Shown one piece after another: positions 1,533 to 12,302 of a DNA stretch of 12,302 bases (the stretch's first letter is position 1; each line of letters begins with the position of its first letter). This DNA comes from a virus (Duplodnaviria; Heunggongvirae; Uroviricota; Caudoviricetes), in the IMG/VR virus record IMGVR_UViG_2529293038_000015; one strand, written 5' to 3'. The notes below the pieces were generated by a model. That model did no database searches. It was not told the origin of the DNA and saw only the letters and a list, made by a program, of their open reading frames with translations. Both the position numbers and the translations under genes were made by a program.

Positions 1533-1557
1533 GCCCCGGTTATCCGGGGCTTTTTTT
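1533..1557 (+). terminator. Intrinsic-terminator-like hairpin between V and G
   Basis: Perfect 7-bp GC-rich stem GCCCCGG (1533-1539) / CCGGGGC (1544-1550), 4-nt loop TTAT, followed by T7 (1551-1557); sits in the V-G intergenic gap. Confidence 0.55.
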
Positions 1558-1572
1558 CAGGTGGAGAACATG

Positions 1573-1959
1573 ATGTTTCTGAAACAGGGCACGTTTAATT
1601 ATGAAAAGCAGTCCGTGGTGCTCAGTGAGCTGTCCGGGCTGCAGAGAATTGAATATCTGGCGTTTGTTCAGCAGCGAACGGCAAAGTTTGATGCCGAAGA
1701 GGGAGAACTGCCGGAGGCTGAACGACAGATTGCTTTTCTGCGGATGGGGATGGATATCAATGCCTGGCTGGTTTCCCGCTCACAGTGGAATGCGGATCAG
1801 TCTAAGGATGTAGAGACGCTTTGCGCATCCGTTATTACAACATGGTCGTATGATGCCCTGGGTGCGGGGGCGGAGATGGTTCTGTCGCTGAGCGGTATGG
1901 GGACCATTGATAATGCCGGGGATGATGAGCATGAGGCGCTGACGCCGGAAAAGTCCTGA
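1573..1959 (+). CDS. G: Tail assembly chaperone G
   Basis: ATG 1573 (MFLK.., as in lambda gpG) with GGAG at 1564-1567; 128 aa; LSELSGLQRIEYLA motif; position immediately after V; ends TGA 1957-1959. Confidence 0.85.
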   Translation: MFLKQGTFNYEKQSVVLSELSGLQRIEYLAFVQQRTAKFDAEEGELPEAERQIAFLRMGMDINAWLVSRSQWNADQSKDVETLCASVITTWSYDALGAGAEMVLSLSGMGTIDNAGDDEHEALTPEKS

Positions 1960-2297
1960 CGCGGGAAATGCAGTTTGTCATGCGGCTTGCCCGGGAGTTC
2001 CGGCGGGCAGACTGGCGGCGGATGCTGTCGGAAATGTCGGCCACTGAGCTTGGTGAGTGGGGCGATTATTTCCGGATGCAGAGCTTCAGTGATGTGTGGA
2101 TGGATGCGCAGTTTGCCTCGCTGAAGGCATTGATCGTGAGAATGGTGTCCGGCAGCAGTGATGCTGCGGTGGCTGATTTCAGCCTTTTACCGGAAGAGAA
2201 CGGGATACCGGAGCGAACGGACGAAGAACTGATGCATCTTGGGGAAGGTATTTCCGGAGGTGTGCGTTATGGACCAGATAGCCAACCTGGTCATTGA
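1573..2297 (+). CDS. T: Tail assembly chaperone G-T fusion made by programmed -1 ribosomal frameshift near the 3' end of G
   Basis: The -1 frame is open from 1537 through 2297 with no independent RBS or start for T; a slippery-like heptamer G GAA AAG (1947-1953) lies 2 codons before the G stop. Arrangement is the conserved G/GT of lambdoid tail operons. T stop (2295-2297) overlaps the H start. Confidence 0.7.
1947..1953 (+). promoter_or_regulatory. Putative -1 frameshift slippery site for G-T (G_GAA_AAG)
   Basis: In the G frame GAA-AAG; in the -1 frame GGA-AAA. Lambda uses G_GGA_AAG; here the P-site codon is GAA rather than GGA while the A-site AAG to AAA slip is retained. Confidence 0.5.
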
Positions 2298-5200
2298 TTT
2301 GGGGATTGATGCGGCAGAGTTTAAAAATGAAATCCCCCGTATCAAAAACCTTCTGAATGGTGCAGCCAGCGATGCAGAACGGTCTTCTGCCCGTATGCAG
2401 CGTTTTATGGAGCGTCAGACTCAGGCCGCCCGGCAGACAACGCAGGCGGCTTCTTCGGCTGCAACAGCCGCATCCGTCCATGCGCAGACGGTGGAGAAGA
2501 ACGCACAGGCTCATGAACGCATGGCCCGCGAGGTGGAGAAAACCCGCCAGCGCATGGAGGCGCTGAGCCAGAAAATGCGCGAGGAACAGGCGCAGGCCAT
2601 GGCTCTGGCGGAGGCTCAGGATAAAGCGGCTGCTGCGTTTTATCGTCAGATTGACAGTGTGAAACAGGCCAGTGCGGGGCTGCAGGAATTACAGCGTATT
2701 CAGCAGCAGATCCGACAGGCCAGAAACAGTGGCGGGATTGGTCAGCAGGATTATCTGGCGCTGATTTCTGAGGTTACGGCGAAAACCCGTGTTCTTACAC
2801 AGGCTGAGGAAGAGGGTACCCGACAGAAAGTGGCGTTTATCCGTCAGCTTAAAGAGCAGGCAACCCGCCAGAATCTTTCATCTTCTGAGTTGCTTCGTGC
2901 TAAGGCTGCCCAGCTGGGGGTAAGCAGTGCTGCAGAAGTGTATATCCGCAAAATGGAGCAGGCAGGAAAAGCCACGCATTCGCTGGGTCTGAAAAGTGCA
3001 GCGGCCCGCCAGGAGATAGGCGTTCTGATAGGTGAACTGGCCCGCGGCAATTTAGGGGCGCTGAGGGGATCCGGGATAACGCTGGCTAACCGTGCCGGAT
3101 GGATAGACACACTGATGTCACCGAAAGGCATGATGCTGGGCGGGGTTATTGGCGGTATTGCCGCAGCTGTCTATGGTCTGGGTAAAGCCTGGTATGACGG
3201 TCAGAAGGAGGGGGAAGAATTTAACCGCCAGCTGTCGCTGACGGGGCATTATGCCGGAGTCACTGCCGGGCAGCTGTGGACGCTCAGTCGTGCTATTTCC
3301 GGGAATGGTATCACGCAACATGCTGCAGCCGGTGCGCTGGCTCAGGTGGTGGGGAGTGGTGCATTTCGTGGAAACGATATCGGTATGGTGGCGAGAGCTG
3401 CCGCACAGATGGAGCGATCGGTTGGCCAGTCGGTCAGCGATACCATAAGTCAGTTTAAGCGGCTGAAGGATGATCCTGTAAATGCCGCGAAGGCTCTGGA
3501 CAATGAGCTGCATTTTCTTACTGCCACTCAGCTTGAGCAGATACGCGTCCTTGGGGAACAGGGGCGTCCAGTGATGCGGCACGGATAGCCATGTCTGCAC
3601 TGGCAGAGGAAACCGGTCGGCGTACTGCGGATATTGATAATAACCTCAATGCGCTGGGCAGTACGCTGAAGTATCTGTCTGATTTATGGAGTCGTTTCTG
3701 GGATGCGGCCATGAATATTGGTCGTGAAGACTCGCTGGATGAACAGATTTCCGCTTTACAGGAGAAAGTGTCGCGGGCGAAAAGACTCCCCTGGACGGCA
3801 TCATCTTCTCAGGTTGAGTACGATCAGCAGCGTCTTAACGAGCTTCAGGAAAAAAAACGCCAGAAGGATTTGCAGGATGCAAAAGAGCAGGCAGAGCGGA
3901 ATTATCAGGAGCAACAGAAACGCCGTAATGCTGAAAATGCTGCACTGAACCGGATGAATGAAACGGAAGCAGCACGACATCAGCGTGAAATTGCGCGTAT
4001 TAATGCCATGCAGTACGCCGATCAGACTGTCAGGGATGCGGCGATACAACGTGAAAATGAACGTTACGAGAAAGCCCTGGCATCCGGTAAGAAAAAAACA
4101 CGCGAAACCCGTAATGATGAGGCCACCCGGTTATTGCTGCAGTACAGTCAGCAACAGGCACAGGTGGAAGGACAGATTGCTGCTGCCAGACAGTCAGCAG
4201 GCATTGCCACGGAAAGGATGACAGAAGCGCATAAACAGCTTCTGGCTCTGCAGCAGCGCATCAGCGACCTGGACGGGAAAAAACTGACGGCAGATGAAAA
4301 GAGTGTGCTGGCCCGTAAAGATGAACTGATTCAGGCACTGACGCTGCTGGATGTAAAACAGCAGGAGCTTCAGAAACAGACGGCACTCAACGAGCTGAAG
4401 AAAAAAACAATTCAGCTGACCAGTCAACTGGCTGAAGAAGAGCGTGCTCAGCGTCAACAACATAATCTGGATATCGCCACGGTGGGTATGGGTGATCAGC
4501 AGCGGCAGCGATATCAGGTACAACTGAGTCTTCGTCAGAAATACCAGCAACAGCTGGAGCAGTTGAGGCGGGATAGTGAGCAGAAAGGGACATATAACAC
4601 GGATGACTACAGAAAGGCCGAGCAGGCGCTGACGGAGAGCCTGAACCGACAACTGAATGAGAATCGCCGTTACTGGCAACAGCTTGAAATTGCTCAGGGT
4701 AACTGGAAAAACGGAGTCCTGCGTGCACTCCAGAATGTCACTGAGAATGCGGATAACACAGCCTGGACAGTGGAACAGTTGTTCACGTCTGCGTTCAGTA
4801 GCATGAGTGACTGGCTGGCGACATTCTGTACTACAGGCAAACTCAATTTCAAATCTTTTACTTCTTCTGTGCTGTCAGATATGTCCAGAATCATGGCTCA
4901 GATAGCTTTAATGAAAGCGGTAAAAGGCATTGCTTCCGCGCTGCCTTTTGATTTTGTAGCCAATGCTGATGGCGGTGTTTATCAGTCGGCTGATTTGAGT
5001 CGCTACAGTGGCACGGTGGTTAACCGTCCGACGTTTTTTGCTTTTGCAAAAGGCGCGGGTGTGATGGGGGAAGCGGGACCTGAAGCCATTCTGCCATTGC
5101 GTCGTGGTGCTGACGGTAAGCTGGGGGGTGTGGCGGATATTGGGGGTTCAGGTATGGCGATGTTTTCCCCGCAGTACAACATCGAGATCAATAACGATGG

Positions 5201-5324
5201 CACGAACGGGCAGATAGGTCCGGCTGCCCTGAAGGCGGTTTATGACCTCGGGAAAAAAGCGGCAGCGGACTTTATGCAACAGCAGGCCCGTGATGGTGGT
5301 CGGTTAAGTGGAGCATATCGGTAA
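2269..5324 (+). pseudogene. H: Tail tape measure protein H, split into two reading frames by a 1-nt frame disruption at about 3537-3588 (pseudogene or sequencing error)
   Basis: ATG 2269 (MDQIANLVIDLGIDAAEF.., cf. lambda H MAEPVGDLVVDLSLDAARF) with GGAGG at 2256-2260. The first frame stops at 3588; the second frame is open from 3537 and ends ..INNDGTNGQIGPAALKAVYD..ARDGG.. like the lambda H C-terminus. Both parts align collinearly to one tape measure protein; combined length ~1018 aa. ORF-track start 2239 is a TTG. Confidence 0.85.

Positions 5325-7714: not shown

Positions 7715-12302
<4,588 letters not shown>

What the first reader, a model, noticed from the sequence alone, without database searches (positions are those of the whole stretch)
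1945..1956. G-T programmed -1 frameshift site with a variant slippery heptamer
T has no start codon or RBS of its own. Its frame is open from within the 3' end of G, and the overlap contains G_GAA_AAG two codons before the G stop. Lambdoid phages make the GT fusion by -1 slippage on G_GGA_AAG; here the P-site codon is GAA rather than GGA, while the A-site AAG to AAA shift on tRNA-Lys is retained. This may alter the G:GT ratio, which matters for tail assembly.
Basis: partly seen in the sequence, partly recalled or inferred. Interest (0 to 1): 0.4.

Follow-up and report, generated by a model that had tools for sequence, protein, structure and literature searches.

The report
Phage tail G-T frameshift site
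This is the ordinary ribosomal frameshift site that lambda-like phages use to make a small amount of a fused tail-assembly protein; its GGAAAAG slip sequence differs from phage lambda's by one base, but it is the commonest form in this gene family and is already annotated in phage N15.

Summary
G (1573-1959) and the -1-frame T reading frame (open 1935-2297) overlap by only 25 nt. The only sequence there on which tRNAs can re-pair after a -1 slip is G_GAA_AAG at 1947-1953. It lies at exactly the position of lambda's G_GGA_AAG, and the downstream T sequences align from the junction onward.

It is not an unusual variant. GGAAAAG occupies the homologous position in Gifsy-2, phi80, mEp043, Eeyore, a Klebsiella phage and N15. 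The N15 GenBank record labels it 'slippery sequence for -1 translational frameshift'. In a one-genome-per-species scan it is the heptamer in 18 of 26 sequence clusters; lambda's GGGAAAG is in 3. All seven bases are invariant across these diverged loci, including the wobble G of the preceding codon, although that residue varies (P/A/L/T/V).

Published in-vitro work used this same G GAA AAG as the 'less slippery' comparison to G GGA AAG, so a lower intrinsic shift rate is plausible but has not been measured in vivo. I found no conserved downstream structure. An SD-like GAGG 10 nt upstream is only suggestive.

This copy sits in a decayed prophage. Verdict: already known, low interest.

The parts
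1573..1959 (+). Gene G, tail assembly chaperone, 128 aa. An alternative ATG lies at 1570. GGAG at 1563-1566 is the likely ribosome-binding site. Stop is TGA at 1957-1959.
   Evidence: ORF list and translation. Pfam PF06894 Phage_TAC_2, E=1e-38. RefSeq annotates it as gpG in E2348/69.
1947..1953 (+). Shift heptamer G_GAA_AAG. In frame 0, GAA (Glu) is in the P site and AAG (Lys) in the A site. After a -1 slip these become GGA and AAA. Base 1953 is read twice; the next codon is GTC at 1953-1955.
   Evidence: Sequence. Same position as lambda G_GGA_AAG. Invariant in 32 aligned diverged loci. Present in 18 of 26 clusters. Annotated as the slippery sequence in N15.
1935..2297 (+). Reading frame T, in the -1 frame relative to G. 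It is open from just after TGA 1932-1934 and stops at TGA 2295-2297. Within GT it is translated from 1953. The predicted fusion is G residues 1-127 plus 114 residues, 241 aa, with junction ...ALTPEK|VLTREMQF...
   Evidence: Translation. Pfam PF06223 Phage_tail_T, E=5e-15. Alignment with T of lambda, N15, phi80, Gifsy-2 and others starting at the junction.
1932..1934 (+). TGA in the -1 frame. It closes frame T upstream and limits the possible shift window to 25 nt.
1968..1970 (+). In-frame ATG in the T frame, used by RefSeq, mEp460 and Tritos as the T start. It is not conserved and has no spaced SD. It is the candidate start under the rival 'independent T' reading.
   Evidence: It aligns with CTG, CTT and other non-start codons in relatives.
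1933..1936 (+). SD-like GAGG 10 nt upstream of the heptamer, a possible dnaX-style stimulator. This is inferred and weak.
   Evidence: Predicted duplex with the 16S 3' end is -5.6 kcal/mol here, -9.2 in the commonest close relative (GAGGTG) and -7.4 for dnaX. The positional peak across loci is explained by a conserved Glu codon, and the codon bias is not significant.
2269..5324 (+). Tape measure gene H, the partner of G and GT in lambda. It overlaps the end of T. In this copy a 1-nt deletion between 3565 and 3566 disrupts it.
   Evidence: Pfam TMP_2, TMP_4 and Tape_meas_lam_C on the two halves. Alignment with mEp460 and Ayreon. RefSeq flags it 'frameshifted'.

Best explanation
Positions 1947-1953 are the programmed -1 ribosomal frameshift site of a lambda-type tail assembly chaperone pair.

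Most ribosomes read ...CCG GAA AAG TCC TGA and release the 128-aa G protein. A minority slip back one base while Glu-tRNA is on GAA in the P site and Lys-tRNA is on AAG in the A site.

- Lys-tRNA (anticodon UUU, E. coli's only lysine tRNA) re-pairs perfectly with AAA.
- Glu-tRNA (anticodon UUC) re-pairs with GGA. The first and third positions are kept and the middle position becomes a G-U pair.
- Translation then continues at GTC (1953) in the T frame. The product is a 241-aa G-T fusion, ...TPEK-VLTREMQF....
- By analogy with lambda, the G part of the fusion binds the tape measure protein and the T part recruits the tail tube protein.

Shown here: the anatomy, the homology, the position and the nucleotide-level conservation.

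Inferred: that the fusion is actually made, its amount, and whether both tRNAs slip together or mainly the lysine tRNA slips.
For: - Gene order Z-U-V-G-T-H-M-L-K-I-J, with G = PF06894 and the -1 frame = PF06223.
- The overlap is only 25 nt and contains one re-pairable motif.
- Junction alignment: lambda GKVFDGELSFALKLAREMGRPDW against window GKVLTREMQFVMRLAREFRRADW. The heptamers occupy identical positions.
- The same GGAAAAG is found in Gifsy-2, phi80, mEp043, Eeyore and Klebsiella phage Kp4865-4.
- It is also found in N15, where the GenBank record marks 10027-10033 (GGAAAAG) as 'slippery sequence for -1 translational frameshift'.
- Census of one genome per species: GGAAAAG in 43 of 60 distinct loci and in 18 of 26 clusters at 85% identity.
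- Every other heptamer found in the two censuses keeps a lysine codon preceded by A, i.e. A_AAG or A_AAA: G_GGA_AAG, A_AAA_AAG, G_GTA_AAG, A_GAA_AAG, G_GCA_AAA, G_GGA_AAA.
- In the GGAAAAG class the heptamer is the only invariant block around the junction.
- The preceding codon is CCG, GCG, CTG, ACG, GTG or TTG. Its third base is always G although the residue varies. That G is not needed for either protein, which points to selection for P-site re-pairing.
- GAA and AAG are never replaced by their synonyms.
- Plaque-forming phages of the same lineage (cdtI, mEp460, Ayreon, Tritos, HannyBb) carry this G-T region at 98-99.9% identity. Where I read the sequence (mEp460 and Ayreon), the heptamer is identical.
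- A_AAG is the most shift-prone tetramer in E. coli (Sharma et al. 2014, PMC4066793).
- NNA_AAG sites are used naturally, for example G_CGA_AAG in IS1222 (Atkins et al. 2016, PMC5009743).
Against: - No protein or reporter data exist for this sequence.
- In a purified E. coli translation system, G GAA AAG gave mainly the 0-frame product under conditions where G GGA AAG shifted readily (PMC6924986).
- Without a stimulator, tetramer motifs are barely above background in vivo.
- I found no conserved downstream RNA structure: z-scores 0.08 and -0.56 and a consensus fold of -1.48 kcal/mol.
- An in-frame ATG at 1968 could in principle give T alone.
- In this copy the tape measure gene is frameshifted and J carries an IS insertion. 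The site is probably no longer under selection here.
Confidence: 0.9

Rival explanations
1. T is made as a separate 109-aa protein by initiation at ATG 1968, as RefSeq and several phage records annotate it. No frameshift is needed.
For: An in-frame ATG exists at 1968-1970, 9 nt after the G stop, so termination-reinitiation is conceivable. Records annotate T as 1968-2297.
Against: - GGGAA at 1963-1967 abuts the ATG, so there is no properly spaced SD.
- The ATG aligns with Leu or other non-start codons in lambda, Gifsy-2, N15, phi80 and most of the 32 aligned relatives.
- This reading does not explain why GGAAAAG, including two synonymous positions and a wobble G, is invariant just upstream.
- From established knowledge of lambda (Levin et al. 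1993; Xu et al. 2013, cited in PMC5009743), T is made only as part of GT.
Confidence: 0.05
2. The shift happens here but is essentially a single-tRNA event. Only Lys-tRNA slips on A_AAG, and the P-site Glu-tRNA contributes through its wobble properties rather than by re-pairing (the NNA_AAG 'hexanucleotide' mode).
For: - The P-site codon varies across the family (GGA, GAA, GTA, GCA, AAA), while a lysine codon preceded by A (A_AAG, or A_AAA in a minority) is constant.
- The NNA_AAG mode is documented in E. coli (PMC5009743).
Against: - Heptamer base 1 is G in 63 of 65 distinct loci. Within the GGAAAAG class it is always G, across six different preceding codons. That is what P-site re-pairing of the first codon position predicts.
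- GAA to GGA keeps two Watson-Crick pairs plus a G-U pair.
Confidence: 0.3
3. In this copy the site is an inert relic. The prophage is defective, so no functional G:GT balance is maintained and the heptamer is simply inherited.
For: H has a 1-nt deletion relative to mEp460 and Ayreon, which creates a premature stop (RefSeq flags it 'frameshifted'). J is interrupted by an IS4-family transposase gene.
Against: - G, the heptamer and T are intact and 99.9% identical to phage cdtI.
- This concerns current usefulness, not what the sequence is or how it would behave on a ribosome. It is compatible with the best explanation.
Confidence: 0.6
4. The frame change arises from transcriptional slippage of RNA polymerase on the A run rather than from the ribosome.
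For: The site contains a run of A.
Against: - The run is only 4 A. From established knowledge, productive transcriptional slippage in bacteria needs longer homopolymer runs, typically seven or more.
- The conserved flanking G and G, and the codon register, are features of ribosomal slippage.
Confidence: 0.01

Closest known systems
Phage lambda G/GT tail assembly chaperone frameshift (G_GGA_AAG; Levin, Hendrix & Casjens 1993; Xu, Hendrix & Duda 2004, 2013, 2014)
   Same: - Same gene families: PF06894 and PF06223.
- Same gene order between the tail tube and tape measure genes.
- Same -1 direction and same position of the shift site in the protein alignment.
- Same A-site slip of Lys-tRNA from AAG to AAA.
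- No recognisable RNA structure stimulator found here.
   Different: - The P-site codon is GAA (Glu) rather than GGA (Gly). Re-pairing leaves a middle-position G-U pair instead of a wobble-position change.
- The G stop follows after 1 codon rather than 5.
- The overlap is 25 nt rather than 64 nt.
- The G and T proteins are only about 33-38% identical to lambda's.
Phage N15 genes 14/15 (GenBank NC_001901; misc_feature 10027-10033 'slippery sequence for -1 translational frameshift')
   Same: Identical heptamer GGAAAAG in the same register and at the homologous position. The T proteins are 42% identical. phi80, mEp043, Eeyore, Gifsy-2 and Klebsiella phage Kp4865-4 share it.
   Different: N15 has 5 codons between the heptamer and the G stop and no SD-like motif at -10. 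The window's own lineage (cdtI/mEp460/E2348-69 prophage) has no joined GT or slip-site annotation in any record I inspected.
NNA_AAG 'hexanucleotide' -1 shift sites in bacteria (IS1222 G_CGA_AAG; B. subtilis cdd A_CGA_AAG; Licznar et al. 2003, as summarised in PMC5009743)
   Same: A non-canonical heptamer in which only A_AAG is fully slippery. The P-site codon ends in A.
   Different: Those sites work with strong downstream stimulators (in IS elements) or give incidental products. Here no downstream structure is conserved, and the P-site codon can still re-pair at two Watson-Crick positions plus a G-U pair.
E. coli dnaX (A_AAA_AAG with an upstream SD-like element and a downstream stem-loop)
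   Same: -1 shift on Lys-tRNA at AAG. The window has a GAGG 10 nt upstream, the same order of spacing as the dnaX SD-like element.
   Different: - No stem-loop.
- The SD-like element is weak (-5.6 against -7.4 kcal/mol) and not conserved across the family.
- The expected efficiency is far below the ~50% of dnaX.

Membership tests
Lambda-type G/GT tail assembly chaperone with programmed -1 frameshift | Two overlapping reading frames located between the major tail (tube) protein gene and the tape measure gene | tested here: met
   V (PF16461 + Big_2) at 769-1512, G at 1573-1959, T frame at 1935-2297, H (TMP_2 / Tape_meas_lam_C) from 2269.
Lambda-type G/GT tail assembly chaperone with programmed -1 frameshift | The upstream frame encodes a gpG homologue | tested here: met
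   PF06894 Phage_TAC_2, 132 bits against a cutoff of 27, covering 1-121 of 128 aa. tblastn to lambda G gives 32.6% identity, E=2e-8.
Lambda-type G/GT tail assembly chaperone with programmed -1 frameshift | The downstream frame is in the -1 register and encodes a gpT homologue | tested here: met
   PF06223 Phage_tail_T, 56 bits against a cutoff of 25.9. Frame relation shown. Alignment A1 has 28 invariant columns.
Lambda-type G/GT tail assembly chaperone with programmed -1 frameshift | A shift-prone sequence inside the overlap, at the position homologous to lambda's | tested here: met
   G_GAA_AAG at 1947-1953 aligns with lambda G_GGA_AAG. It is conserved in 18 of 26 clusters.
Lambda-type G/GT tail assembly chaperone with programmed -1 frameshift | A GT fusion protein is produced at a few per cent of G and is required for tail assembly | not testable with these tools
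   Needs a reporter assay, western blot or mass spectrometry. The only indirect support is that functional phages carry this G-T region at 98-99.9% identity.
Canonical X_XXY_YYZ tandem-slippage heptamer | The first three bases are identical and the next three are identical, so both tRNAs keep their non-wobble pairs after the slip | tested here: not met
   The heptamer is G-G-A-A-A-A-G. The P-site codon GAA becomes GGA, a second-position change. Peng et al. describe it as a second-position mismatch.
Z_ZZN tetramer / NNA_AAG hexanucleotide -1 shift motifs of E. coli | An in-frame A_AAG with the preceding codon ending in A | tested here: met
   GAA_AAG in the G frame. Motif class described in PMC4066793 and PMC5009743.
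dnaX-type stimulated frameshift cassette | An SD-like element about 10 nt upstream of the shift site | tested here: inconclusive
   GAGG at 1933-1936, spacing 10 nt, -5.6 kcal/mol. It recurs in several lineages, but a conserved Glu codon explains this and the GAG/GAA bias is not significant.
dnaX-type stimulated frameshift cassette | A stable stem-loop or pseudoknot 5-9 nt downstream of the shift site | tested here: not met
   Folding energies are no better than shuffles, z = 0.08 and -0.56. RNAalifold on 32 relatives gives no structure near the site and no covariation.

The most novel reading that the evidence does not exclude
The textbook lambda heptamer is the minority form. Most enterobacterial gpG/gpT pairs use G_GAA_AAG, which is a poor shifter in a purified system. 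Either these phages assemble tails at a much lower GT:G ratio than lambda's roughly 1:30, or they rely on an unrecognised stimulator that compensates. Candidates in this window are the SD-like GAGG (GAGGTG in most close relatives) 10 nt upstream and the G stop codon only one codon downstream.
Probability: 0.2. Interest if true: 0.4.

Novelty: already known. Interest (0 to 1): 0.12.

Why it matters
It matters little beyond annotation. RefSeq and the deposited records of the cdtI/mEp460 lineage list G and T as two separate proteins, with T starting at an unconserved ATG. The correct product is almost certainly a 241-aa G-T fusion made by slippage at 1947-1953. This same G-T region occurs in about a third of complete E. 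coli genomes (1846 of 5426).

One modest open question remains. How much GT does G_GAA_AAG give in vivo compared with lambda's G_GGA_AAG, given that lambda tail assembly depends on the G:GT ratio? In this window the question is moot, because the prophage has a broken tape measure gene and an IS element in J.

Tried and rejected
- **Downstream RNA stimulator.** Single-sequence folds of 1954-2040 and 1920-2010 are no better than shuffles. RNAalifold on 32 diverged GGAAAAG loci gives no structure near the site. Rejected.
- **Upstream SD-like stimulator.** SD-core 4-mers peak at spacing 10 (19 of 65 loci), but all peaks are frame-locked. The spacing-10 peak comes from a conserved Glu at codon -5. 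Its GAG:GAA usage (28:24) is not clearly different from the rest of G (286:384). Kept only as a lead.
- **Other shift sites.** I looked elsewhere in the 25-nt overlap and at +1 frame use. None exists, and the +1 frame closes after 34 codons and encodes nothing recognisable.
- **Transcriptional slippage.** Rejected, because the run is only 4 A.
- **Viral-contig scan with T.** It returned 80 loci, all 100% identical in T, so it was useless for diversity. It did show the heptamer is fixed in close relatives.
- **Literature searches.** 'GGAAAAG' plus 'frameshift' gave only irrelevant hits. Licznar et al. 2003 and Xu et al. 2004 are not held in the library. I therefore could not read the measured value for GAA_AAG or the published table of tail-chaperone slip sites.
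- **PRFect paper.** It names a 'twofour' backward motif for tail chaperones, which GGAAAA would fit. Its definition is in a supplement I did not read.

Full report
**What the window is.** The window is the tail module of a lambda-like prophage. Bases 1531-2300 are 99.9% identical to phage cdtI and to a prophage of E. coli O127:H6 E2348/69, and 98-99% identical to plaque-forming phages mEp460, Tritos, HannyBb and Ayreon. The same G-T region is present in 1846 of 5426 complete E. coli genomes. Pfam assigns the + strand genes to Z, U, V (tail tube plus Ig-like domain), G (PF06894), T (PF06223), H (tape measure), M, L, K, I and J.

**The observation.** G runs from ATG 1573 (or 1570) to TGA 1957-1959 and ends ...CTG ACG CCG GAA AAG TCC TGA.
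- The -1 frame carries TGA at 1932-1934 and is then open to 2295-2297, so the two frames overlap by only 25 nt.
- The single motif in that stretch on which tRNAs could re-pair after a -1 slip is G_GAA_AAG at 1947-1953.
- In-frame A_AAG is rare in the window's genes, 7 of 3308 codons. The chance of one falling in a 7-codon overlap is about 1.5%.
- The bare 7-mer is not rare: 5 copies against 1.5 expected. One more in-frame copy lies in J at 9964.
- The statement that T has no start codon is not correct. There is an in-frame ATG at 1968, which RefSeq, mEp460 and Tritos use as the T start. GGGAA abuts it, so no spaced SD is present. The codon aligns with Leu in lambda and Gifsy-2 and with non-start codons in most relatives.

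**Homology of the site.** I dissected the G/T overlap in lambda and nine other phages with the same script.
- Lambda, 21 and an Stx2a phage have G_GGA_AAG. An Stx1 phage has A_AAA_AAG.
- Gifsy-2, phi80, mEp043, Eeyore and Klebsiella phage Kp4865-4 have G_GAA_AAG.
- In every case the heptamer sits at the same place, and the -1 frame products align from the junction onward: lambda GKVFDGELSFALKLAREMGRPDW against window GKVLTREMQFVMRLAREFRRADW.
- Phage N15 has the same GGAAAAG. Its GenBank record carries a misc_feature at 10027-10033, which I read as GGAAAAG, labelled 'slippery sequence for -1 translational frameshift'.

**How common it is.** I scanned one genome per bacterial species with an alignment of nine T proteins. 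This gave 78 loci, mostly Enterobacterales.
- Among 60 distinct loci the heptamer at the homologous position is GGAAAAG in 43 and GGGAAAG in 8. Several of the latter are lambda DNA itself in unrelated assemblies.
- The remainder are GGTAAAG in 4, GGCAAAA in 2, AGAAAAG in 2 and GGGAAAA in 1.
- I then added the phage loci and clustered all of them at 85% identity over the 150 nt downstream. GGAAAAG is the form in 18 of 26 clusters and GGGAAAG in 3.
- All 80 close relatives from viral contigs keep GGAAAAG.

**Evidence that the bases themselves are selected.** In an alignment of 32 diverged GGAAAAG loci, the heptamer is the only invariant block around the junction.
- The codon preceding GAA is CCG, GCG, CTG, ACG, GTG or TTG. 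These encode five different residues, always with G in the third position.
- That G is not decoded in the T frame, because the shift occurs after it, and it is synonymous in the G frame. Its constancy is best explained by re-pairing of the P-site tRNA.
- GAA and AAG are never replaced by GAG or AAA in this class.

**Mechanism.** From established knowledge, E. coli's single Lys-tRNA (anticodon UUU) pairs better with AAA than with AAG and is the classic -1 shifter. A_AAG is the best tetramer motif in E. coli (5.6% with a pseudoknot stimulator). The tetramer motifs as a group averaged about 0.15% without one, barely above the no-motif controls (Sharma et al. 2014, PMC4066793).
- NNA_AAG sites such as G_CGA_AAG in IS1222 are used naturally (Atkins et al. 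2016, PMC5009743).
- For G_GAA_AAG, the Glu-tRNA moved onto GGA keeps its first and third positions and has a G-U pair in the middle.
- Peng et al. 2019 (PMC6924986) used exactly AUG GAA AAG as the 'less slippery' comparison to AUG GGA AAG in a purified E. coli system. They obtained mainly 0-frame product.
No in-vivo number was available to me.

**Search for compensating stimulators.**
- Downstream folding is unremarkable, and no structure is conserved among relatives.
- Upstream, GAGG lies 10 nt from the heptamer. It is GAGGTG in most close relatives, and Pantoea loci with G_GTA_AAG have GGGGAGGA at the same spacing.
- Predicted pairing with the 16S 3' end is -5.6, -9.2 and -11.5 kcal/mol respectively. 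The values are -7.4 for dnaX and about -2 for lambda and phi80.
- The positional peak is frame-locked and stems from a conserved Glu at codon -5. Its GAG/GAA usage (28:24) is not clearly biased against the background of 286:384. This remains a lead, not a finding.
- The G stop lies 0, 1 or 5 codons after the heptamer in different lineages. Here it is 1.

**Rivals.**
- Independent initiation of T at ATG 1968 is unlikely: the codon is unconserved, it lacks a spaced SD, and this reading does not explain heptamer conservation.
- Transcriptional slippage is excluded for practical purposes, because the run is only 4 A.
- Whether one or two tRNAs slip is open. The invariant first G favours a P-site contribution.

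**State of this copy.** H has a 1-nt deletion between 3565 and 3566 relative to mEp460 and Ayreon, which gives a premature stop at 3586-3588 (RefSeq flags it 'frameshifted'). J is interrupted by an IS4-family transposase gene on the minus strand, and its C-terminal tip domain resumes at 11739. The prophage is therefore very probably defective, and the G-T site is an intact part of a decaying tail module.

**Verdict.** Its heptamer is the common form in this family and is already annotated in N15. It is already known and of low interest. The practical point is that database records for this lineage should carry a joined GT product.

Noticed in passing
window 3565-3588 (gene H, 2269-5324): The tape measure gene has a 1-nt deletion (GGGGCGGTC to GGGGCGTC) relative to phages mEp460 and Ayreon. 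This shifts the frame and gives a stop at 3586-3588. RefSeq marks the E2348/69 copy as a 'frameshifted' pseudogene.
   Followed up: partly
window about 10259-11738: J (tip attachment protein) is interrupted by an IS4-family transposase gene on the minus strand. DDE_Tnp_1 lies at 10272-11225 and Nterm_IS4 at 11084-11614, in two overlapping frames, so the transposase itself may be frameshifted. The J C-terminal tail-tip domain resumes at 11739.
   Followed up: partly
window 1533-1557: An intrinsic-terminator-like hairpin, GCCCCGG-TTAT-CCGGGGC followed by T7, lies between the tail tube gene V and G. The equivalent element is annotated as a rho-independent terminator in mEp460, Ayreon and N15. It would lower G/T/H transcription relative to V.
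   Followed up: no
window 9964-9970 (gene J): There is a second in-frame G_GAA_AAG inside J. A -1 shift there would terminate after 10 codons. The heptamer is evidently tolerated in a gene where no shift is wanted, which fits a low intrinsic shift rate.
   Followed up: partly
L141-L143, L159 (Pantoea); L102, L104 (Kluyvera, Ewingella); L106, L107 (Morganella); L140 (Providencia): Other heptamers occupy the homologous position.
- G_GTA_AAG, preceded by a strong SD-like GGGGAGGA at spacing 10.
- G_GCA_AAA and G_GGA_AAA, each followed immediately by TAG.
- A_GAA_AAG, followed immediately by TAA.
The less re-pairable the P-site codon, the more often a stop codon or an SD-like element is adjacent. 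The sample is too small to test this.
   Followed up: partly
L146-L158, L165, L169 and similar loci from the genome-contig scan: Thirteen or more loci identical to phage lambda sit on short or ~48 kb low-coverage contigs. The assemblies are labelled Kitasatospora, Neobacillus, Oceanobacillus, Shewanella, Pseudomonas, Leeuwenhoekiella, Enterococcus and others. This is almost certainly lambda DNA contamination of those assemblies, and it inflates the apparent count of GGGAAAG sites.
   Followed up: no
window 1933-1935 and homologous codon -5 in 52 of 65 related loci: A Glu five codons upstream of the P-site codon is strongly conserved in the otherwise variable acidic C-terminal tail of G (pattern E-x-x-x-x-E-K). 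Whether it is conserved for the protein or for the mRNA (the GAG-G SD-like motif) is unresolved.
   Followed up: partly
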